Virus record (IMG/VR): IMGVR_UViG_3300030095_004873
Coordinates: 1 to 39,691 of that record
Origin: a virus
Lineage: Duplodnaviria; Caudoviricetes
Direction: 5' to 3' (one strand)
DNA length: 39,691 nucleotides
In this document: positions 4,247 through 27,516 of the stretch, in pieces
How positions within the stretch are numbered: position 1 is the stretch's first letter
Layout of the letters: each line of letters begins with the position of its first letter
Made by a program: the position numbers and the translations under genes
Notes under the pieces: generated by a model
Told to the model about the DNA's origin: nothing
Seen by the model: only the letters and a program-made list of their open reading frames with translations
Databases searched by the model: none

Positions 4247-5374
4247 ATGGAATTAAAAGTAAGAGCTGTAGAAGGCAACGAAAACAAATCAAAAGCTGAA
4301 ATAGAAGAACAACTTCTAAACAAGCATGAAGAAGAATTAAAACAAGAAGAGCCACAAGCAGTTGAAGAAACTGAAAAAGTGGTAGAGGAACAACCTCAAA
4401 CAGAGGATGAAAGTAAAACTCCCTCATCAGAGTTAAATGATGAAGACGTTCTTTCTTTTTTGAAGAATAGATATGACAAAGAAATAAATTCAGTTGATGA
4501 ACTTTTTACAGAAAAAGAAGTAAATGAACCATTACCTGAAGATGTTTCTGCGTATTTAAAGTACAAGCAAGAAACTGGTCGTGGTATCGATGATTTCTAT
4601 AAATTACAAAGAAATTATGATACTATGGAAGATGAGGCTGTACTTGCTGACTATATTGCAACAAACGAAGAAGGTTTAGATGCAATAGATATTCAAGATA
4701 TCATGGAGGATAAATTTGGCTTTGATGAAGAGTTAGATGAACCGAAAGATATTAAGAAGAAAAAGTTAGCTAAAAAACGAGAACTCGCAAAGGCGAAGAA
4801 GTTTTTTAATGAACAAAAAGATAAGTATAAAATTCCTCTTGAGTCAAGTGGGGGTGGATTATCAGAAGATCAAGAAAAACAACTTAATGCTTATAAAGAG
4901 GCTCTTGAGAAATCGAAGACTGTTGAAGAGGCAAATGCAAAAAAGAGAAACTATTTTACAGAAGAAACTAAAAAAGTTTTTTCCAACGATTTCAAAGGTT
5001 TTGATTTCGCTGTTGGTGAAGATAGTTTTACTTATAAGCCAGGAACTACAGAGGAATTGTTTAATGTCCAAAACGACTTTAACAACTTTGTAAAAAAGTT
5101 TGTAGATGATAGTGGAATGATATCAGATGTAAAATCTTATCATAAAGCTTTATCAGTTGCAAGTAATCCTGACAAATTTGCCAAACACTTTTATGACTTA
5201 GGTATGTCACAGGCTGTAGAAAATGTTTCTAAAAAATCTAAAAACATTAATATGGATGTGAGAAAAACCCCAAGTTATGTAACAAAGGATGGATTAAAAA
5301 TTCGTGCTATGCAAAACAAAAGTGACAACGATAGTGGTAGAGGACTCAAAATTAGAAGTATTAAAAAAATGTAA
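4247..5374 (+). CDS. Putative capsid scaffolding protein
   Basis: 375 aa, very acidic N-terminus, helical/coiled-coil character, basic C-terminal tip; lies between portal and MCP. Confidence 0.7.
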   Translation: MELKVRAVEGNENKSKAEIEEQLLNKHEEELKQEEPQAVEETEKVVEEQPQTEDESKTPSSELNDEDVLSFLKNRYDKEINSVDELFTEKEVNEPLPEDVSAYLKYKQETGRGIDDFYKLQRNYDTMEDEAVLADYIATNEEGLDAIDIQDIMEDKFGFDEELDEPKDIKKKKLAKKRELAKAKKFFNEQKDKYKIPLESSGGGLSEDQEKQLNAYKEALEKSKTVEEANAKKRNYFTEETKKVFSNDFKGFDFAVGEDSFTYKPGTTEELFNVQNDFNNFVKKFVDDSGMISDVKSYHKALSVASNPDKFAKHFYDLGMSQAVENVSKKSKNINMDVRKTPSYVTKDGLKIRAMQNKSDNDSGRGLKIRSIKKM

Positions 5375-17206: not shown

Positions 17207-17821
17207 ATGGCAGGATTTACTACATTGGCGGCAGGAGTCGGAGCAGCAACAGCACTTGGTGGCGGTTTAATGTCTTTCGGTCAGTCCGCAAAAGCATCTA
17301 AACAAGCGGCAGATGCACAAAAAAAAGCTGATAGGCTAATGGCAGAAGCTCGAAAAAATGCACAGAAAGATGTATACGCAAAACTACAAGTTCCATTAGA
17401 TGCATTTAACGAACAATATAGACAAACAAACCAAGCTGCAACTGCTGGTATACAAGCACTACAAGAAGGTGATGCAAGAACACTTGCGGCTGGTATAGGA
17501 CAAATCTCAGGAGCAGTTAATGAAGCTACAGAGAAAACAAGAATTGATAAAGCAGAAGCTTTATTTGGTTTAGAAAAAGACAAAGCAACTTCTCAAGAAA
17601 ATATTAAACAACAACTAATAGCCATGGATTCGGGTGCTGCAAAAGATGCTGAAATGAAAGCAGCAGATAAAGAAAAAATTGCCGCTTCAAGTTTACAACA
17701 AGGTATTAAACAAGCTGGAAAAGGAGCAGTAGGTGTAGCAGGTATGGCGAAGGGATTGTTTGGTGATGAAGACTTGACCCCTGAAGAGTTAGACGCTTTA
17801 TTTAAATACTTAAAGGATTAG
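17207..17821 (+). CDS. Small DNA-ejection / internal virion protein
   Basis: 204 aa. Hydrophobic Gly/Ala N-terminus, Ala/Gln coiled coil and Gly-rich C-terminus, typical of pilot/ejection proteins. Confidence 0.6.
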   Translation: MAGFTTLAAGVGAATALGGGLMSFGQSAKASKQAADAQKKADRLMAEARKNAQKDVYAKLQVPLDAFNEQYRQTNQAATAGIQALQEGDARTLAAGIGQISGAVNEATEKTRIDKAEALFGLEKDKATSQENIKQQLIAMDSGAAKDAEMKAADKEKIAASSLQQGIKQAGKGAVGVAGMAKGLFGDEDLTPEELDALFKYLKD

Positions 17822-17842
17822 TAGGTAGTTAAAAAAAAATTT

Positions 17843-19864
17843 ATGGCATTACAAGAAAAATCATTTCAACCACAAGACTATCAAAAGTATGTACAGAGAG
17901 GTCCTGATCATTATGTGAACTGGGAGAAGATGTCTCAAGATGTCACTAAACTTTTTACAGATGAGGCTACTCGTAGAGAAAATGTAAAGGCAGATATTGA
18001 TGAAAGAACTCAATCGTTATATGATCAGTTAGCAGAAGTTGAAGTAAATAAAGATGGAAAATGGAGTGATGAAGTTTTATCATCTGCTAATCAAATTCGT
18101 AAAGCTTTAGGCACTTACAATTCTTTATTAAAAAAAGGAGCTATATCTGTTACAGAATATAAAACTCAAATGGAAAGAGTTAAAGGACAAATGTCTGAGC
18201 TTAATATAATTACTAAAGAATTAGGTTCTACTTATGATTTACATCAAGGTAGATTAGCGGTTGGAGAGAATGGAGAAGTATTAGCAGCTCCTGATGAGAT
18301 AGCGGTATTTAATTCTGCAAGTGGATATGGTAAATTAAAAAATACCAAGATATATATCGATCCAGTTACTATGAATGCATTTATGTATAAATTAGATGAT
18401 GATGGTAAGATTCCAGACTTTACAAAAAACCCTGAGAAATTTTTAGCAGTAAATAATTCAAGAGCAATTTTAAATTATACTAACGACAGAAGTCAATATG
18501 TTATATCTGATGTATCAAAAAATTATGTTGATGACATAGGTAAATTTGTTTCTGAAAGTTTACAGAGATTTAGTGGTGAATTTAGAGATGGTACTTATGT
18601 GTTGAGTGAAGAAGGTATTAGAGCTATGAATAATTCAGGATTCGGTGATGATATCAATGCCGAAATGAGTGATTTAAAAAACATAATATTTGAAAAACTA
18701 ACTGCTGAGGGAGACAAAGGTCTTGCTAATACCATCTCTACATTAAATGGTGACTACATAATGGCAATGAGTGAGGATGAGTTTAAGAAAAAAGGTGGTA
18801 CAGATTTAAAATATTTTATTAAAATAGATCCTGATGCTGCAGATGGAATGACATATGAATTTAGTAGTGATGCTGCAAGAGATGCGGCTATTGCTGAGAT
18901 AAAAGAAAATGTTGGTGAAAATGTTGAGTTGATGGTAGGTAAGTCTATTAAAGTAAGTAATCCTACATATGAACCTGGTGAAAGTGCTGTTCAAGCAGGT
19001 GAAGGTGCTAACAATGATCTTGCTGCAGGTTACTTTAGAGATTTAAAAAATATAGTAGGTGGTGGTGAAGGAAACTTCAGTGCATCAGTAGAAGACTTAA
19101 AGGATAAAGCTAATGCAAGATTAGCTGATTCAGGTTCTCAAATTACTGATATAACAAGAGAGAAAAACTTTATTGAAATTGTAATAGTAGATTCAAAAGG
19201 TAATAGAACTGTTAAAAAAATAGATAGGTTTGAGACAGATGATAAGGGAGCTTATACAGATGTAAAAATTCCTGACTCAGTAATATATCAAAAACTTAAC
19301 ACTGAATTAAGACCTTCAGGTATGGATGACTCATTCGAGTCTTTAGAAACTGCAGCTACTGATGGAGGGTTTAATTATGACTTTGAAGAGGGTACATACT
19401 TTGGGGATGAAACACGAACCAATGTTGCTCCTTACACAGAAAAAACTCATAAACCTTTTAGCGATACATTTACTGTAGGTGATGATGCAAAGGCGGTAAA
19501 ATATTCAAATACTTTGCAAAGTAAAATTAGTGCAACAGGTTATAGTAATCAATTGAGTCAGTTTAAATCACATTTACCTGGTGAGTTATCTTCAGCTTTA
19601 AGCAAACAAGGTATAGATATTAAGCCAAGTGGCTTTGTAATTACAGGTACAGATTTAACAGGTGGTAGTAATGAATTTAAAATTTCATACACTAACCCTT
19701 ACAATGGTAAGAAAAGTAGCAAAACATTCTTATTTAATACTCATAATTCATCTACAGACAATACTACTGATATTATGAATGCAATGGATACTGTTATGAA
19801 TGATATTATAGCAGAGTCAAACAGAACAAAAGGAGGAACAGAAAATAACCAAGGAGCACCATAG
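17843..19864 (+). CDS. Putative internal virion / ejection protein
   Basis: 673 aa, helical N-terminal half, located between the small ejection protein and the giant protein. Confidence 0.55.
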   Translation: MALQEKSFQPQDYQKYVQRGPDHYVNWEKMSQDVTKLFTDEATRRENVKADIDERTQSLYDQLAEVEVNKDGKWSDEVLSSANQIRKALGTYNSLLKKGAISVTEYKTQMERVKGQMSELNIITKELGSTYDLHQGRLAVGENGEVLAAPDEIAVFNSASGYGKLKNTKIYIDPVTMNAFMYKLDDDGKIPDFTKNPEKFLAVNNSRAILNYTNDRSQYVISDVSKNYVDDIGKFVSESLQRFSGEFRDGTYVLSEEGIRAMNNSGFGDDINAEMSDLKNIIFEKLTAEGDKGLANTISTLNGDYIMAMSEDEFKKKGGTDLKYFIKIDPDAADGMTYEFSSDAARDAAIAEIKENVGENVELMVGKSIKVSNPTYEPGESAVQAGEGANNDLAAGYFRDLKNIVGGGEGNFSASVEDLKDKANARLADSGSQITDITREKNFIEIVIVDSKGNRTVKKIDRFETDDKGAYTDVKIPDSVIYQKLNTELRPSGMDDSFESLETAATDGGFNYDFEEGTYFGDETRTNVAPYTEKTHKPFSDTFTVGDDAKAVKYSNTLQSKISATGYSNQLSQFKSHLPGELSSALSKQGIDIKPSGFVITGTDLTGGSNEFKISYTNPYNGKKSSKTFLFNTHNSSTDNTTDIMNAMDTVMNDIIAESNRTKGGTENNQGAP

Positions 19865-19866
19865 AT

Positions 19867-22800
19867 ATGAATAATAAATATTTAGAAGAACTTTATGGGT
19901 GGATTAGTACAACTGATAGAACCTTTAATGAAAAGTATACACTTGATGAGTTTGTTGAAAATATGGATTCAGAAGATTATGCTATACAAATGTACTCCTG
20001 GATATCAGAACAAGATCCTACCTTTCAAGACCGATACACAGTTGACCTTTTTGTTGAAAAGGTAAAAAAAAAAGATTTATCTCCGCAAGATGCTATTACA
20101 GAAAGCATGGAAGATGCTTCACTTTTGGATGGTTCTCAAGGGATGGGCTCTCAGCAAATAGCTGGACCTACTGTAAACCAAGATTCTTCCGAAGAAGTTA
20201 TTCCAATAAATAAAGAGTTTAAAATTAATGAAGGTGAAGTTGATGAAGAAACTTATAATGAGTATACAGATGCTCAAGACCAACGACAACAAATAGCTGA
20301 CGATCCTTTTGAAAATGCATTAAGTTATGTGAATGCAGAATTGGTATCCCAAAATGAAAAGAATTTATCTGTAGATTTAAAATATAGATTTGGTAGATAT
20401 GGGTTTGAATTTACTCCTGATATTATTGGTGATAATATTACTATTACATCTAAACAAATAGATCCTAATACAGGAAAGCCTTACACTTTAGAGATTGAAG
20501 CAGACAGTAATGATGAAGCACTTAATCTTCAGACTGCACAAAACATACAAGATTTTATAAGAAAATATCAAAAAGTCGACACAAGGTTTGAAGATGTTTC
20601 TGGTCAACTAATAAATCAAGATAAAAAATTTCAATCAGAAGCTGAGATTAAAAATGCATTTAAAATTTTAGATGGAGAATCCAAAGCTTTTAATAGTCGA
20701 GTCCAAGAATATATAAAGAAAAGAAGAATATATCTTAATAAAAAAGCTCAAGCAGATGGGATGACTCAAGCCCAAATAAACACTGACATTGGACAAGCAT
20801 TTTTAAAAGAATTAGAACAAGTAAGGGTTTCGTTAGATGCAGAAAAGGAAGAGCTTTATGCAGAAGATGTCAGCCTTGCTAATAGAGGTTACGAAATAGA
20901 TTTATTAGTAGGAAAGTATTCCGAAATGAATGCGGGTAAAGGAACACGTTTAGGTGCACTGTGGGATGGATTTACTACAGGTGTTTCCAGATTATCCGAA
21001 ACACCTATTAATTATTTAATAGATGGTGTTGTAGAAGTAGCTCCTTTTAGTTTTCTTGTAGGGTCAACCCAGTATGAAAAATCATTTGCTCAAAGAGCTG
21101 AAGAGTTAGGATATTTCGATCCTTCTGATTTGGATAAACCTTTTGCATCTTTTGAAGCTTTCAAAGAATCTTTTTCATCTGATCAAATAAGTGAAATTGA
21201 CAACTACATAGAAGATAGGGTTAAGAAAAGTCTAAAATATGGCAACATATCTTTTAATGATGATGGTTCTATTACAACTGATAGAGCAAGACTTGGTAGT
21301 AGATATTCAGAACAAATGTTCAAGTCAGATGTAAAAGAATTAACTTCAGATGGTATGCTTCCTTTAGTAAGAAAAGGATATGATATGATGATGGGTGATG
21401 ATGATACTACTCCAGAATATTCAGAATTGATGAGAGAAGGTTTTTGGGGTGGAGCAATGTTAGGTTTGTCAGAATCAATACCAGCTTTTTTACCACTTCC
21501 AGGTGGATGGATATCTCGTACAGGAAGAATGTTTGCACAAGTGGACTCTCACTTGACTGATGAAATGATGAATAACCCAAACTTTGCAGACATACCAGAG
21601 TCAGAAAGAAAAGCTGTAGCTATGCCAATTGCAATAGTTGTGGGTGCTTTAGAGTATGTAGGTTTTAGAAACATAATGAATCAAAAAGGTTTGTTAAATA
21701 AATATGTTTTAAAAGGTTTACAACTTTATAAAGGATCACATCAAACCAAAGGATTAACATTCAGGCAAATAGTATTAAATGAAATACAAAATGATATTAA
21801 AAAAGGAGTATTGATTGTGGGTGCTGCAGGTCTTGCAGAATTTGAAACAGGGGTAGCTCAAGAGATAGCTGATATCAGTGGTAAAAGTATTTATAATGAA
21901 ATAAAAGGAACAGAGATGTTTCAAACACCTGATAGTTTTAAGGATGCATTAGGTCAAATCATTTATGCTGGAGGGCAAGAAATGGTAGGAGGATGGGTTA
22001 TGGGTACAATACCAGGTGTTGCGGCTGGGTTTGTAGGTAATGATTATACTGCTATTTCAGATCCTATGTTTGAAACTTTCGAGTCAATCAGTAGTGATAG
22101 AACTTATTTCACAGCATTTGTTCAAAAAATAAAAAATGATATTAATAGTGGAACTATAGATAAAAAAGAAGGAAAATCTTTATTAGATGCGGTAAATGCA
22201 TTGAATGGTATCGTAGATAAAGTACCTCAAGATATCGATGTAAAGCTTAGAAAAAAAGCAGTAGGTTTGTTATATAATAAATCTTTATTACTACAAAAAA
22301 GAGATAAACTTGCACCAGAACTAAGAGGTAAGGTTGATAAAGAAATAGGTAAGATTGACAAAGAGTTAAAAAAATTAATAGATGGAGCAGTTTCTGTTAA
22401 AGGAACTGAAGCTAATATAGAACAAGAAGAAGAAGTTAGTGATGAACAAGCTACTGCATATATAAATAAAGAAAATGAAACACGATCGAAGTTAGGATTA
22501 CCTGCTATAAAGATAACACCAGAGTCGATTAAAAATGCTAAATTAGAACTTAAAAAAGAAAAAGATGCCAGTAAAGAGCAAAGCCCAGTTCAGGAAACTG
22601 GCGAAGTTGAATCCCAGTCTACTGAAGAAGTGGATGAAACAGTATCCAGTGGAGTACAAGAGTCTGCCGGAACGAGTAACCAAAAAGGTACAGAGCAAGG
22701 TAAAACTACCGCGCCGAAAAAGACGGAAGTAGAAGAAGAGGTCTCTGACATCACTGAGTTTGTTGGTGAAACAGAAACTGATGGTGTAGTAGATCCTACT

Positions 22801-25800
22801 ACAGAGCTTGGTGTTCAAGAAGAGGTAGAGTTTGAGACTGAGAATGTAACTAAAGATGGTAAAGTTAAAAGAAGTAAAGCAACTAAACCAGTTGATACAA
22901 AAGTAAAAGGTAAATTTAATAGTGTTATTAAGTTTGCATCTCGTGCTGCAAGTGCAGTTAAAAGAATATTACCTAAAGTAAATATAATTCTACATGAGTC
23001 TTCTGAAAATTTTAAACAAGCCACTGGTAAAACTGGTAAAGGTTTCTTTAATCCTACCAATCAAACTATACATATAGATTTAACAAAAGGAAGTAACAAG
23101 ACAGTAGCTCACGAAATGTTTCATGCCTTATTAGTAAACTCTGTTAAGACTAATCCTCAAGCAAGAGAATTAACAAAAAGAATGGTTAAAGCTGTGGCAA
23201 AAGCTAAAGGTTTGACTAAAGAACAAAAACAAAAAATAGATACATTTATATCTAACTATGATGCCGATATTCAAAACGAAGAAAAGTTAGCAGAAATATT
23301 AGGGGTTTTAGCTGATGGCTACACTAAACTGGATGCGCCTACAAAAAGTAAAATAAGACAGTGGATAGAAAAGATAGCTGCAAGATTAGGATTAAATCTT
23401 TCTACATTTACTAAATCAGATCAAGATATAATTGATTTAATGAATACTGTTGCTCAAAAAATTAGAAGTGGAGAAACTATAACTAAAAAAGATGTTGCTG
23501 CACTTAAGACTAAAACAAAACCTAAACCTAAAAAACAAACACCTAAAAAGAAAAAAGGTGATCAGTTAGATGTATTTGAAGGTAGAGAACAAAAAGAAGC
23601 TAAACCAATAGCAGAAAGATATATGATGAGTTTAAGAGGGTTTATTAGTCCAAGAGCCTTATATGATACATCAAGATTAAAAAGAGAGTTAGAGAACATA
23701 GGAATGAGATTGGGTACTGCAAAGAATGAGTTTACTGGTGAGATAACAGGTTACTATTTCCAAAAAGTTTCAAAAAGAGGTAATCCATATTTCTATAATC
23801 CTTTTGGTAGACAACAAAAAGATATTGACAAAGCTGGAAGTGGAATTTCTAACATCGCAGAGCTTATAGTTAAACTAAAAGAAAATAACTTTACACCTGA
23901 AGCTATTAAAAAATATTTATTAGAAAATAAAAAAATAGCCTCTAACATAGTAAATAAACTTATGAACACCAGCACTTTTGTGTTAAGCAGAATGCCAGAG
24001 TCTTTTCAAAAATTAAAAGGAGGATTTCTTACTGGAATAAAATTATTTAACAAAATAGCTAAGTATAAAGATAGGTTGTCAAACAACAATACAACTCCTT
24101 TTGGAAAAAAAATGGTGGAGTTAAAACAAGAGTTAGAACAATTAAAAGCACAGAAAAACAAAAAAAGAGATATTGCAAAAACACAATTAGCAATAGATAA
24201 ACTAAAAGCTAAAAATCCAGGAGCTAAAATCTATAAACTCACTAACACTGAGATAATGAGTAAGACTATTGAGTTTTTGAGAAAGCAACCAGAGTATATG
24301 GCTGTCAAAGACAAGAAAGGATTATCATTGCTACAAGCTCAAATGGAGATGCAGTTAGAAAAAGCTTTCTATCAAGCTCCAACTAAAGATATGGCTAATC
24401 AAATGAGATTAGCACGAGCTATAGTCAATATACAAACAAAAAATGTACAGAGTTTAGAGAGGGTAAAAGCAAATTTAAGAAACTTTATAAGAGTGGTATT
24501 CCCTGCAGATATGTATACTAAACCTGAAACATTAGAGTTAGTTCAAGAAGTTCAAAATGCAACTTTAGAAAATATAAAAGAAGTAAAATCTAAGTTAATG
24601 GATATGGCAACAACAAAAATTGTCCAAGGCTTAGAAACAAAAATTAAAAGTTTACTAAATAAAAATTTTACTTCGATAGAAGGAGGTAGAGCTAAAGCGA
24701 GAATTGTTGACTCTCAAACCATAAAGCTTTTAGAACAAGTGAAAAGTATTTTTAATACTGTACAAAGTATAAAAGATAATCCTAAAAGTATAGAAAACTT
24801 AGTGCAGAAAAATTTAGACAAAATAGCTAAATTAAAAACTGAAGCAGTTCAAGATGAAAATACTTTTGCAGAACTAACTGCATTAGAAATGATTAATGAG
24901 TATGCCAATGCACAGTTGGAAGATGATTCGAGTTTTGAAAAAGTGGCAGGTTTAAATAGAGTTTTTGAAACACTTAATGAAACCCTTACAGAAGGTAGAA
25001 ACACATTAGAAGCACAAAAGAGAAGAAGATATCATACTTATTTAAAAGATATTGAAATAGCTTGGGAAAGCATTACTGGTAACAAAATAGAATTGTTGAT
25101 ACAAAATCCTAATTTTGATTCACAACTTCCAGAAGATAAGAGTAATCTACGAATGATAGTAAATCCTGATGCTAAAAAACTTATGAAGGAATATCAGAAC
25201 TTAACTGATGCTAAAAAGAGACAAGCAAAGTCTTTACCTGCTCGTATGATAAATAGTGTTACTTCAGCATTTACAAGAACACAGATAGCTAATATTTTAG
25301 ACTTAACTACTCTTGTTGAATATATTACTAAAATTCCTGGTGAATTGTTTAAAGGACCATTTCAAGATATAACTGCAAGACTGGTTGATGATGCATCAAT
25401 TATACATAAAGGATTTGGTATTCAAGATAGATTTGCAATAGAGTCACAACTTGATAAGATATATGGTAAAGGTTGGATGGGTAAAATGGAGAACGATGCT
25501 ATACCAAGAGATACTGGTATAGCTGCAGACTTAGAGAGATACAATAAGGCTAAAGCAATGTATCAAAGAAATAAGACTGATAAAAATAAATTTAAAATGG
25601 ATGCTTTACAATTACATTTATCTCCTTATCAAATAGCATATCATTTAAATCAGTATAAAGATCCTGCAAACCATGCTTCATATGAAGCAAAATATGGTAA
25701 AGACTATAAAAGAGTGATGAAAGAAATGAGAGAATACATGGAAGCCAATAATCCTGAAGCCATTGCTTTAGCAGATTATATGGTGAATGAAGCTTATCCA

Positions 25801-27516
25801 AAAATGTATGAAAGGTACAACAAAACATATAGAGAAGTATTTGGAATGGATTTGCCTTGGAGTAAAAATTATGGTGGTCAAATATTTAGAGAAGGAGTAG
25901 AGCCAAGTGAAATTGATTTATTAGCCGAAGGAAAAGGAGCATTTGCTGCAATGGCAGCACCCGCATCTTCCAAGGTTAGAAGCAAAAACAAAATACCTAT
26001 TCAAGACATGGACTTGATGAGAAGTTTTATAGCATATCGAGAACAAATGAATTGGTTTGCTGCATATTCACCAGTTTTAAATAGAATGAATAAGTTATTT
26101 AAAAACCCAAACATAGCAAAAGCTATACAATCACAATATCCAAGTGGTTTTTATAATATGATAATAAAACAAATAGATACCTTAGCAACCAAAGGTCTTA
26201 GTAATACTGCAGGAGAACAATGGTTAAATGCTGCAACAAACTACTTTGTGGTAGGTAGACTGGGTGTAAATCCGACTATCTATTTAAAACAGTTAGTGTC
26301 TTTTCCTACCTATGCCAATGATATAGGTTATATAAACTGGACAAAAAATGCAATCCAAAGTATTGGTGAGATTAGAAGTTTAATGAAAGAGGTATTAGAT
26401 AACTCTATATATTTACAAGACAGATATGGTAAATCTATTATTAAAAACTTAGAAAATTTTGTACCTACTACTGATTATGAATCTAAACTTACTCAAGGAA
26501 ACTTTCAAAAATTACTTGATGCAACTATGTATCTTGTAAAACAAGGTGATAAAGGTGCAATAATGATTGGTGGTATACCTCTTTATAGATATCATAAAAA
26601 TAAAATAAGAAAAGAAAATCCAGGCTTAACTGATCAACAAGTAATGGCAAAAGCTATTAGAGAGTTTGAAATAGCAACAAGACAAACACAACAGTCTACT
26701 GATTTACAAAACAGAGACTACACACAAACCTCTGGTATATTTGCAAGAACTATGAATATGTTCAAAACATCGATTAGATCGTATTTAAGAAAAGAAATTA
26801 TATATTTTAGAAATAGTAATAAAATGATAAGATCGTTTGGTAAAGAAGGAAGAGGTACATTGGGACAAAACTTAAGAGGTTTGCTTACATATCACACAGT
26901 ATTACCAGTATTTTTTCAATATCTATCGGCTGGGCTTCCAGGAGTGTTAGCTCCTTGGGATGAAGAAGATAAAACTGATCTTGCAAGAGCAGTAATAATA
27001 GGAAATTTTAATGCATTGTTTGTAACAGGAGACATACTTGCTATGTTTGCTGATGCTTTCACTGGTAAACCTTGGGAAGCAGATGTAACAGATGTACCAT
27101 TAATAGAAGTAGCAGAATTAATATCTAAACACGTCCAAAGAATAGCAAGAACTAAAGATGAAGATAAAAGGAATGACTTAATCACAAAGTTTATGATGGA
27201 AGATGTTCCAAGTTATTTTGGTTTAAACCTTAAGTCTCTAAATAGATGGAGAAAAAACATACAACAAATAATGGAAGATCCTTCAGATCCTAAAGAGGTG
27301 TTACTAAGATTATTTAACTTTAGTGATTTCCAAATTAAAAGTAATGAGGAGAGAAATAAAAAGAAAACAAAATCATTAAGCAAAAGAGATTTAAAAAGAA
27401 TGTTCCCTGATCTATACGAAGAAATGCAAGTACCAGATGATGTTCAACAACAAATTGATGAGATTGAGGCTGAAATTAAAAGAGTAGAAGAAGAAGCGAA
27501 AGAACAAATACAATGA
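19867..27516 (+). CDS. Giant (2549 aa) polyvalent-type internal virion protein with zincin-like metallopeptidase motif
   Basis: Last large gene of the virion operon. TVAHEMFHALL (HExxH) with downstream EEKLAE; Gly-rich hydrophobic helices in the N-terminal third; helical C-terminal region; no RNAP DxDxD motif seen. Confidence 0.75.
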   Translation: MNNKYLEELYGWISTTDRTFNEKYTLDEFVENMDSEDYAIQMYSWISEQDPTFQDRYTVDLFVEKVKKKDLSPQDAITESMEDASLLDGSQGMGSQQIAGPTVNQDSSEEVIPINKEFKINEGEVDEETYNEYTDAQDQRQQIADDPFENALSYVNAELVSQNEKNLSVDLKYRFGRYGFEFTPDIIGDNITITSKQIDPNTGKPYTLEIEADSNDEALNLQTAQNIQDFIRKYQKVDTRFEDVSGQLINQDKKFQSEAEIKNAFKILDGESKAFNSRVQEYIKKRRIYLNKKAQADGMTQAQINTDIGQAFLKELEQVRVSLDAEKEELYAEDVSLANRGYEIDLLVGKYSEMNAGKGTRLGALWDGFTTGVSRLSETPINYLIDGVVEVAPFSFLVGSTQYEKSFAQRAEELGYFDPSDLDKPFASFEAFKESFSSDQISEIDNYIEDRVKKSLKYGNISFNDDGSITTDRARLGSRYSEQMFKSDVKELTSDGMLPLVRKGYDMMMGDDDTTPEYSELMREGFWGGAMLGLSESIPAFLPLPGGWISRTGRMFAQVDSHLTDEMMNNPNFADIPESERKAVAMPIAIVVGALEYVGFRNIMNQKGLLNKYVLKGLQLYKGSHQTKGLTFRQIVLNEIQNDIKKGVLIVGAAGLAEFETGVAQEIADISGKSIYNEIKGTEMFQTPDSFKDALGQIIYAGGQEMVGGWVMGTIPGVAAGFVGNDYTAISDPMFETFESISSDRTYFTAFVQKIKNDINSGTIDKKEGKSLLDAVNALNGIVDKVPQDIDVKLRKKAVGLLYNKSLLLQKRDKLAPELRGKVDKEIGKIDKELKKLIDGAVSVKGTEANIEQEEEVSDEQATAYINKENETRSKLGLPAIKITPESIKNAKLELKKEKDASKEQSPVQETGEVESQSTEEVDETVSSGVQESAGTSNQKGTEQGKTTAPKKTEVEEEVSDITEFVGETETDGVVDPTTELGVQEEVEFETENVTKDGKVKRSKATKPVDTKVKGKFNSVIKFASRAASAVKRILPKVNIILHESSENFKQATGKTGKGFFNPTNQTIHIDLTKGSNKTVAHEMFHALLVNSVKTNPQARELTKRMVKAVAKAKGLTKEQKQKIDTFISNYDADIQNEEKLAEILGVLADGYTKLDAPTKSKIRQWIEKIAARLGLNLSTFTKSDQDIIDLMNTVAQKIRSGETITKKDVAALKTKTKPKPKKQTPKKKKGDQLDVFEGREQKEAKPIAERYMMSLRGFISPRALYDTSRLKRELENIGMRLGTAKNEFTGEITGYYFQKVSKRGNPYFYNPFGRQQKDIDKAGSGISNIAELIVKLKENNFTPEAIKKYLLENKKIASNIVNKLMNTSTFVLSRMPESFQKLKGGFLTGIKLFNKIAKYKDRLSNNNTTPFGKKMVELKQELEQLKAQKNKKRDIAKTQLAIDKLKAKNPGAKIYKLTNTEIMSKTIEFLRKQPEYMAVKDKKGLSLLQAQMEMQLEKAFYQAPTKDMANQMRLARAIVNIQTKNVQSLERVKANLRNFIRVVFPADMYTKPETLELVQEVQNATLENIKEVKSKLMDMATTKIVQGLETKIKSLLNKNFTSIEGGRAKARIVDSQTIKLLEQVKSIFNTVQSIKDNPKSIENLVQKNLDKIAKLKTEAVQDENTFAELTALEMINEYANAQLEDDSSFEKVAGLNRVFETLNETLTEGRNTLEAQKRRRYHTYLKDIEIAWESITGNKIELLIQNPNFDSQLPEDKSNLRMIVNPDAKKLMKEYQNLTDAKKRQAKSLPARMINSVTSAFTRTQIANILDLTTLVEYITKIPGELFKGPFQDITARLVDDASIIHKGFGIQDRFAIESQLDKIYGKGWMGKMENDAIPRDTGIAADLERYNKAKAMYQRNKTDKNKFKMDALQLHLSPYQIAYHLNQYKDPANHASYEAKYGKDYKRVMKEMREYMEANNPEAIALADYMVNEAYPKMYERYNKTYREVFGMDLPWSKNYGGQIFREGVEPSEIDLLAEGKGAFAAMAAPASSKVRSKNKIPIQDMDLMRSFIAYREQMNWFAAYSPVLNRMNKLFKNPNIAKAIQSQYPSGFYNMIIKQIDTLATKGLSNTAGEQWLNAATNYFVVGRLGVNPTIYLKQLVSFPTYANDIGYINWTKNAIQSIGEIRSLMKEVLDNSIYLQDRYGKSIIKNLENFVPTTDYESKLTQGNFQKLLDATMYLVKQGDKGAIMIGGIPLYRYHKNKIRKENPGLTDQQVMAKAIREFEIATRQTQQSTDLQNRDYTQTSGIFARTMNMFKTSIRSYLRKEIIYFRNSNKMIRSFGKEGRGTLGQNLRGLLTYHTVLPVFFQYLSAGLPGVLAPWDEEDKTDLARAVIIGNFNALFVTGDILAMFADAFTGKPWEADVTDVPLIEVAELISKHVQRIARTKDEDKRNDLITKFMMEDVPSYFGLNLKSLNRWRKNIQQIMEDPSDPKEVLLRLFNFSDFQIKSNEERNKKKTKSLSKRDLKRMFPDLYEEMQVPDDVQQQIDEIEAEIKRVEEEAKEQIQ
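20064..20213 (+). other. Candidate programmed -1 frameshift/transcriptional slippage site (A10) and 46-codon trans-frame extension
   Basis: GTA AAA AAA AAA GAT (A run 20064-20073). The -1 frame is closed by TGA at 20055-20057, then open to TAA at 20211-20213, with no ATG. Confidence 0.55.
22565..22732 (+). CDS. Overprinted +1-frame basic microprotein (55 aa) nested in the giant gene
   Basis: MPVKSKAQFRKLAKLNPSLLKKWMKQYPVEYKSLPERVTKKVQSKVKLPRRKRRK*. ATG in A-rich context, locally GC-richer atypical codons, and resemblance to MP(F/Y)KSxAQ...W...LPE(R/K)V small phage proteins. Confidence 0.65.
   Translation: MPVKSKAQFRKLAKLNPSLLKKWMKQYPVEYKSLPERVTKKVQSKVKLPRRKRRK
23581..23822 (+). repeat. 17-bp in-frame direct repeats (GREQK / GRQQK) 225 bp apart in the giant gene
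   Basis: ggtagagaacaaaaaga (23581-23597) and ggtagacaacaaaaaga (23806-23822), 16/17 identical. Confidence 0.65.

What the first reader, a model, noticed from the sequence alone, without database searches (positions are those of the whole stretch)
22565..22732. Hidden basic microprotein overprinted in the +1 frame of the giant gene's acidic linker
Seen: ATG 22565 in an A-rich context (A at -3) gives MPVKSKAQFRKLAKLNPSLLKKWMKQYPVEYKSLPERVTKKVQSKVKLPRRKRRK* (55 aa, missed by the ORF track). The host frame here is a disordered acidic linker (DASKEQSPVQETGEVESQSTEEVDE...) with abruptly GC-richer, atypical codons (GCC, GGC, ACG, GCG, CCG), as expected for dual coding. From memory it resembles stand-alone small phage proteins of the form MPFKSxAQ...W...LPE(R/K)V. 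Inference: a protamine-like DNA-binding/core protein nested in the ejection protein gene. With the -1 product, one locus could encode three proteins.
Basis: partly seen in the sequence, partly recalled or inferred. Interest (0 to 1): 0.8.

Follow-up and report, generated by a model that had tools for sequence, protein, structure and literature searches.

The report
Movable gene nested in giant gene
A 55-codon gene for a very basic small protein lies one base out of step inside this marine phage's 7.6-kb giant gene and shows the mutation pattern of a protected coding frame, and relatives carry the same gene in that place, inside a different head gene, or standing alone, so it likely is an old virion or DNA-packaging gene that moves into and out of other genes, unseen by annotation.

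Summary
Confirmed. ORF 22565-22732 (55 aa, 20 K/R) lies in the +1 frame of the 2549-aa giant gene. An open frame alone is unremarkable (24% of synonymous recodings). The real evidence:
- It scores 40.8 bits on a profile of database-called genes (recodings at most 17.4), in a family of 3568 clusters.
- In 49 disjoint pairs of nested copies, variation shifts from host codon position 3 to position 1 (43 of 49).
- Its leader is A-rich and synonymously constrained, as Bacteroidota starts require.
All 11 near-complete relatives picked by capsid gene carry it. Across the family it sits in the giant gene, in the scaffold-position gene, or free just behind the giant gene, mostly once per genome. One full-length giant orthologue lacks the nested segment and has the gene 2 nt downstream. 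So 'overprinted' is likely backwards: an old gene was absorbed, and the acidic linker is its other reading. Cultured Flavobacterium elemo phages carry it unannotated. Function is inferred: a head or packaging DNA-binding protein (about 55%). Translation of a nested copy is not shown, and four copies are broken. Earlier scan notes report the same element in other genomes.

The parts
22565..22732 (+). Nested small gene, 55 aa, MPxKSxAQ..W..LPE family, +1 frame of the giant gene
22545..22564 (+). A-rich translation-initiation region written in host K/E codons (T-14, A-13 to A-8, A-6 to A-2)
   Evidence: Bacteroidota rule from PMC6847099 section 15
22564..22734 (+). Host-frame reading of the same bases: acidic linker from giant residue 900 (about 57 codons); gapped in the orthologue G077
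19867..27516 (+). Giant gene, 2549 aa, no Pfam or PHROG hit; ejection or polyvalent virion protein inferred from gene order and relatives
20064..20213 (+). A10 run (20064-20073) and -1 frame with a basic/aromatic tail; candidate third product of the locus (separate feature)
4247..5374 (+). Scaffold-position gene between the portal and putative major capsid genes; hosts the nested gene in another part of the family, not here
17207..19864 (+). gp14-like internal virion gene (phrog_805; PF24072 just under its cut-off) and a 673-aa gene upstream of the giant gene: ejection-module context

Best explanation
The 55-codon frame is a conserved member of a large phage family of small basic proteins, nested in the +1 frame of the giant gene, and is likely translated from its own A-rich start on the late structural mRNA to give a predicted two-helix protein with a basic tail that likely binds DNA in the head during or after packaging. 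Shown: frame, homology, selection signature, constrained leader, and three genomic addresses in one phage family. Inferred, expression: ribosomes of a Bacteroidota host, which ignore Shine-Dalgarno sequences, start at the internal ATG because host K/E codons supply adenines at -13, -12, -6 and -3. Inferred, why it nests: a K/R-rich gene read one base earlier gives E/Q/D/S/T/G/V-rich disordered sequence, so once wobble Ts that would make stops are purged it can sit in any tolerant acidic linker. Inferred, history: the gene is older than the nesting and has moved by recombination between the scaffold-position gene, the giant gene and the free position. Odds: real translated gene about 0.9; head or packaging DNA-binding role about 0.55.
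For: Homology: 3568 clusters at E<=1e-3; 29 of 49 aligned members hit phrog_1375; 40.8 bits against at most 17.4 in recodings. Selection: differences by host codon position are 445/230/222 in the overlap against 585/324/999 downstream; position 1 exceeds position 3 in 43 of 49 pairs; amino-acid difference is 16% in the small frame against 26.5% in the host frame; window against L002 gives 13/7/4 against 8/5/26. Start: the leader is in the top 1% of 2663 background +1 ATGs; K/E/Q codons -5 to -1 end in A in 457 of 477 cases against 73-76% elsewhere; several GC-rich nested copies show GGAG or AGGA upstream instead (by eye). Prevalence: 24 of 41 capsid-picked contigs and 11 of 11 at least 90% complete. 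Addresses. Wobble T is 4% in nested against 22% in non-nested low-GC copies. Role: 8 of 20 stand-alone copies have terminase or portal as the nearest large gene; Gordonia MScarn gp4 lies between terS and terL, Patience gp10 shortly after the portal gene; Patience gp10 is expressed, 7 stringent spectra.
Against: No translation data for any nested copy. 3 of 166 nested-like rows are truncated (L321 and L322 share one allele; L327) and G022's copy has lost its ATG; G073, 98% complete, has no second copy, so it is sometimes dispensable. None was found in the fetched parts of phi38:1 (42.5 of 72.5 kb) or Panino (49 of 77 kb). Patience gp10 is distant (15.3 bits, shuffles at most 9.2) and has only 1 particle spectrum. 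The window's own copy does not hit phrog_1375. Codon adaptation favours the host frame (0.50 against 0.24) and does not support 'small frame older'. The ATG ranks 3rd of 116 out-of-frame ATGs in the giant gene; -3 is G in the five closest non-identical relatives. A close strain has R51Q from a host-silent change. The neighbourhood count has no baseline, and viral contig sets favour terminase and portal regions.
Confidence: 0.6

Rival explanations
1. The conserved 40-residue module is a docking or loading tag (for the procapsid or packaging machinery) rather than a DNA condenser; the nested copy is the bare tag plus a basic tail.
For: In the best 150 database hits the module is almost always N-terminal, and 48 of 150 are over 120 aa with visibly varied C-terminal parts. 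Invariant M-P-x-K-S-x-A-Q and L-P, plus a conserved aromatic, suggest a specific surface. Neighbourhood: terminase or portal.
Against: Capsid proteins of the phages that carry it (Bacteroidota podophages, actinophage siphoviruses) are very divergent, which fits a common ligand such as DNA better (inference). 83 of 150 hits are 80 aa or less, with little or no cargo.
Confidence: 0.2
3. The +1 frame is reached by a ribosomal slip in the A-rich run just upstream, giving a giant(1-899)-basic tail fusion instead of a free protein.
For: AAA AAA GAA AAA precedes the ATG, and the +1 frame is open 6 codons upstream.
Against: The ATG is kept in all 173 distinct nested copies scored (selected on it), the family starts at M-P when free, the frame closes within 2 codons upstream in 27 of 173, and the leader matches real starts.
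Confidence: 0.04
4. A dead relic: a once-free gene absorbed into the linker and no longer expressed.
For: Broken copies exist; the open frame is cheap given the host residues.
Against: Ongoing suppression of host-silent change in close pairs, with in-frame indels, start and stop kept; 163 of 166 nested-like rows not truncated.
Confidence: 0.04

Closest known systems
Lambda Rz/Rz1 two-component spanins (embedded, overlapped, separated architectures; PMC6139136, abstract and outline read)
   Same: A small gene that occurs embedded in a larger one in some phages and separate in others.
   Different: The spanin pair are functional partners forming one complex. Here the small gene lodges in two unrelated virion genes, and is a basic protein with no lipoprotein signal or cysteine.
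phiX174 genes E in D and B in A; DNA-binding protein J (all recalled, not looked up)
   Same: Out-of-frame nesting in a morphogenesis gene; J is a small basic protein that neutralises packaged DNA, the likely functional analogue.
   Different: ssDNA microvirus under tight genome-size limits, de novo overprinting, fixed position, no sequence or fold likeness found.
PHROG 1375 (unknown function): mycobacteriophage Barnyard gp9, Gordonia MScarn gp4; Patience gp10 by similarity to Barnyard gp9
   Same: Same FKSKxQ..W..W..LP core; 29 of 49 members hit it; Barnyard gp9 scores 31-32 bits on my profiles.
   Different: Actinophage copies are free genes with a basic N-terminal extension; the window's copy is too divergent to hit the model itself.
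Phage polyvalent proteins (PMC5512222, search listing and 8 passages read)
   Same: Hosts of some nested copies carry InPase or Kinase-PolyVal domains; the window's giant has an HExxH motif; such proteins are thought to be packaged.
   Different: The terms overlap, frameshift and small protein do not occur in that paper's main text; the window's giant has no Pfam hit.

Membership tests
MPxKSxAQ small phage protein family (phrog_1375-related) | Profile match above composition and recoding controls | tested here: met
   40.8 bits against at most 10.5 (shuffles) and 17.4 (recodings)
MPxKSxAQ small phage protein family (phrog_1375-related) | Direct hit to the phrog_1375 model | tested here: not met
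   No hit for the window copy; 29 of 49 relatives hit, so the link is transitive
Embedded (dual-coding) gene | Start, open frame and stop conserved inside an open host frame in relatives | tested here: met
   3 of 166 truncated
Embedded (dual-coding) gene | Purifying selection on the second frame | tested here: met
Embedded (dual-coding) gene | Translation of the nested frame | not testable with these tools
   Only contigs of RNA libraries were available
De novo overprinted gene | Second frame has no homologues outside the host-gene lineage | tested here: not met
   Stand-alone homologues in unrelated phages, 3568 clusters
De novo overprinted gene | Second frame has poorer codon adaptation than the host frame | tested here: met
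   0.24 against 0.50; also expected from stop avoidance in the host frame
Protamine-like or J-like DNA-binding core protein | Strong net positive charge | tested here: met
   +18 here, median +13 in nested copies
Protamine-like or J-like DNA-binding core protein | Present in virions | tested here: inconclusive
   1 particle spectrum for the distant homologue Patience gp10
Protamine-like or J-like DNA-binding core protein | Binds or condenses DNA | not testable with these tools
   Needs a bench assay
ArfA (PF03889) | Profile match | tested here: not met
DUF3008 (PF11450) | Profile match | tested here: not met
   No member listed at E<=1; language-model likeness only 0.83-0.86
Two-component spanin o-spanin (Rz1) | Lipoprotein signal with Cys, in a lysis cassette | tested here: not met
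   The protein has no cysteine or hydrophobic signal; the host is a virion-module gene

The most novel reading that the evidence does not exclude
A widespread virion or packaging gene behaves as a portable second-frame passenger: with its own start signal it has entered the disordered linkers of unrelated structural genes (scaffold, giant ejection or polyvalent proteins) more than once, in Bacteroidota phages and in GC-rich phages with Shine-Dalgarno starts, and has also left them again (the free copy in G076 still reads like a host linker in its -1 frame). The acidic linkers of many giant phage proteins would then be by-products of a hidden gene, and this one locus would make three proteins (full length, a -1 slip product at the A10 run, and the nested protein).
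Probability: 0.55. Interest if true: 0.85.

Novelty: new variant of a known kind. Interest (0 to 1): 0.7.

Why it matters
Embedded genes in tailed phages are known mainly from spanins. Here a large, functionally blank protein family hides in +1 frames across marine and freshwater phage contigs, and is unannotated in the one cultured record I inspected (elemoA_7-9A; 68 elemo records match at the same spot). It shows a route to gene overlap other than de novo overprinting: an existing basic gene is absorbed because its other frame is a harmless acidic linker. The orthologue pair (window nested, G077 free) and the cultured phage make both the translation and the function directly testable. The element itself has been reported repeatedly within this scan, which lowers the marginal value of this instance.

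Tried and rejected
Word-index homologue search found nothing; tblastn of the window peptide against cultured phages found nothing. The PDB sequence search gave only repeat-protein artefacts. Foldseek against PDB and the wide VIA search gave no meaningful match; the viral library gave weak hits (best E 0.2) to small uncharacterised phage proteins. A homodimer prediction gave no answer. ArfA and DUF3008 were not supported. The codon-usage test of which frame is older does not support my direction and is confounded. Local mRNA folding at the ATG is weak but not exceptional: 13% of 187 ATGs in the gene are as weak. RNA-library contigs from one study cover the whole stretch but cannot show transcription or frame. 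The prokaryote-genome scan gave one locus, not examined further. The careful tree did not finish and the quick tree is used. Five literature searches aimed at a prior report (listings and abstract starts only) found no description of this family or its nesting; the library lacks most subscription papers and bioRxiv supplements were closed. A search for elemo phage proteomics found nothing.

Full report
Observation. The ORF 22565-22732 is present as described and lies in the +1 frame of the 2549-aa ORF 19867-27516. The window is a 61%-complete virus record. It has terminase, portal, virion structural genes, a gp14-like internal virion gene and a BT4734/PriCT primase. Its cultured relatives are Flavobacterium elemo, Maribacter Panino and Cellulophaga phages, so a Bacteroidota host is inferred. 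The giant protein has no Pfam or PHROG hit; calling it an ejection or polyvalent protein rests on gene order, an HExxH motif and domains in other host proteins. The overlap is GC-rich (0.47 against 0.32) and has the poorest host-frame codon adaptation in the gene. Contigs of two other DNA runs span it with no difference listed.

Chance. Given the host residues, 24% of synonymous recodings leave the +1 frame open, 20% with the ATG, so the frame's existence is weak evidence. Its content is not. A profile built from the database proteins scores it 40.8 bits, against at most 17.4 for 5000 recodings and 10.5 for 2000 shuffles, and it is the only strong hit in the window's six frames. Those proteins were found with an alignment that included the window's copy as 1 of 49 rows, a small circularity.

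Family. The first viral scan gave 10 loci: 6 nested in the giant gene (70-100% identity, ATG and stop kept, indels in frame) and 4 free or N-terminal genes in other phage contexts. The profile finds 3568 clusters at 50% identity (E<=1e-3). In the best 150 the module is nearly always N-terminal; 83 are 80 aa or shorter and 48 exceed 120 aa. 29 of 49 members hit phrog_1375, of unknown function, which holds Barnyard gp9 and MScarn gp4; the window's copy does not hit it directly. AlphaFold2 predicts helices 6-15 and 17-26 (pLDDT 78, pTM 0.44).

Selection. Among 173 distinct nested copies I formed 49 disjoint pairs (at least 80% identical over the first 75 nt, alignable flank, at least 3 overlap differences). 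Differences at host codon positions 1/2/3 were 445/230/222 in 2225 overlap codons, 585/324/999 in 2737 downstream codons and 316/200/374 in 1139 upstream codons. Position 1, the small frame's wobble, exceeded position 3 in 43 of 49 pairs. Amino-acid difference was 16% in the small frame and 26.5% in the host frame. Window against L002: 13/7/4 in the overlap and 8/5/26 downstream. The pairing favours low overlap divergence, so the positional split, not the absolute rate, is the test.

Start signal. Bacteroidota use adenines at -3, -6, -12 and -13 instead of Shine-Dalgarno (PMC6847099, abstract and section 15 read). The window has all four. On a matrix from 164 starts of this phage group the leader is in the top 1% of 2663 background +1 ATGs and 3rd of 116 out-of-frame ATGs in the giant gene; 142 low-GC nested leaders score like real starts. 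K/E/Q codons just before the ATG end in A in 457 of 477 cases, against 1179 of 1609 further upstream and 2079 of 2752 downstream (related sequences, not independent). Several GC-rich nested copies show GGAG or AGGA upstream (judged by eye). The five closest non-identical relatives have G at -3.

Three addresses. Two pattern scans gave 119 and 120 loci (estimates of about 2100 and 620 in the collection). Of the 80 long-flank loci of each scan, 39 and 68 were nested; 39 and 40 short loci were left unclassified. The patterns demand AGY serine codons and so may favour nested copies. Many nested copies lie not in the giant gene but in the N-terminal linker of the gene between portal and capsid, a homologue of window 4247-5374; 54 scaffold-type and 62 giant-type among 173. 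As a set not chosen by the small gene, I took 80 loci by capsid gene and searched the 41 on longer contigs: 24 have the gene, including 11 of 11 at least 90% complete. All 24 lie in a frame open across the whole 3-kb locus, 10 of them matching the window's giant by BLASTP; none of the 74 loci with a scaffold homologue (some cut short) has a copy there. 23 of the 24 have one match and one has an extra partial duplicate; 32 of 32 records picked by the small gene have exactly one match, 7 of them near complete. Three relatives carry the gene free, 1, 2 and 9 nt behind the giant gene's stop (G076, G077, G068). G077's giant aligns with the window's over residues 147-856 and 896-2521 (31%) and is gapped at the nested segment.

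History. A quick capsid tree (66 rows, one skipped) puts the window in a 35-row clade (SH-aLRT 99) with 32 giant-nested, 1 decayed and 2 free copies. The 28 scaffold-nested rows lie outside it, and giant-nested elemo lies on a long branch with Panino. Strong branches force at least 3 changes of the giant-nested state. One giant-nested record without a match to this capsid gene (G051, with DNA polymerase) and 10 nested copies at GC of 0.45 or more show that nesting is not confined to one lineage. Wobble T is 4% in nested against 22% in non-nested low-GC copies, as expected from stop avoidance. The free copy of G076 has only 2 stops in its -1 frame and still reads like a host linker (30 bits, 3rd of 20 free copies), which suggests it was once nested; part of that score follows from the protein itself. 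I infer that the small gene is older than the nesting, from its breadth and from its presence in unrelated hosts. Codon adaptation (host 0.50, small 0.24) does not support this but is confounded.

Function. Net charge is +18 (median +13). Of 20 stand-alone loci, 12 have a nearest large neighbour with a named PHROG function: 8 terminase or portal, 1 tail, 1 endolysin, 2 other (no baseline). MScarn gp4 lies between terS and terL, and Patience gp10 shortly after the portal gene. Patience gp10, a distant homologue (15.3 bits against 9.2 in shuffles), was detected by MS with 7 stringent spectra, 1 of them in particles (PMC4324244: abstract, 12 passages and Table S1 read). The best reading is a late, head- or packaging-associated DNA-binding protein (about 0.55), then a docking tag (0.2) or a host-directed role (0.12). 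It is not always needed: 3 of 166 nested-like rows are truncated, G022's copy has decayed, and none was seen in the fetched parts of phi38:1 or Panino.

Testable model. Flavobacterium phage elemoA_7-9A carries a 42-codon copy (62.6 bits on the alignment profile) inside gp90, unannotated; 68 elemo records give a weak tblastn match (E 0.2 to 1 in the rows shown) inside a gene annotated 'structural protein'.

Third product. The giant gene has an A10 run at 20064-20073 whose -1 frame gives a basic/aromatic tail. An A10 or A11 run followed in the -1 frame by a similar tail occurs at codons 32-87 in 13 of 19 giant ORFs examined, including phi38:1 and elemo.

Comparison and novelty. The closest precedent is Rz/Rz1, with embedded, overlapped and separated forms (PMC6139136, abstract and outline), but those genes are partners; here one passenger gene uses unrelated hosts. 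Five searches found no published description; the library is incomplete. Nine earlier notes of this scan report the same element in other genomes; they are not independent support. Verdict: real, a new variant of a known kind, interest 0.7.

Noticed in passing
window 20064-20213: T-A10-G run near the start of the giant gene with a -1 frame basic/aromatic tail; a similar run and tail in 13 of 19 giant ORFs examined, including phi38:1 gp101 and elemo gp90; not seen in the three scaffold-nested genomes, Panino, G059 or the partial G045 ORF. Candidate frameshift or transcriptional slippage.
   Followed up: partly
L230:1501-1850 (G024): Partial tandem duplicate of the nested gene about 200-250 nt downstream inside the same giant gene, without a start.
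   Followed up: no
L409 (G022) and L408 (G073), L322, L327: Decayed or stop-interrupted nested copies with an intact host frame; natural knock-outs.
   Followed up: partly
L407:18073-18247 (G076) and L133: Free copies whose -1 frame still resembles the host linker peptide, possible ex-nested genes.
   Followed up: partly
L267:7922-18830 (G047): A second set of homologues of window genes 8111, 9127 and 10041 far from the main structural module; duplicated tail module or chimeric assembly.
   Followed up: no
L141:5001-5105 (phage C75C1, OQ984151): A 34-aa free member of the family that is not annotated in the record.
   Followed up: no
L332:2501 and L286: Nested copies in other settings: 55 codons from the 5' stop of a long ORF, and inside a 451-codon GC-rich frame with no Pfam hit.
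   Followed up: no
window 4809-5093 and 19895-20065: Other out-of-frame ATG ORFs (94 and 56 aa) inside the scaffold-position and giant genes; no match to this family, conservation not tested.
   Followed up: no
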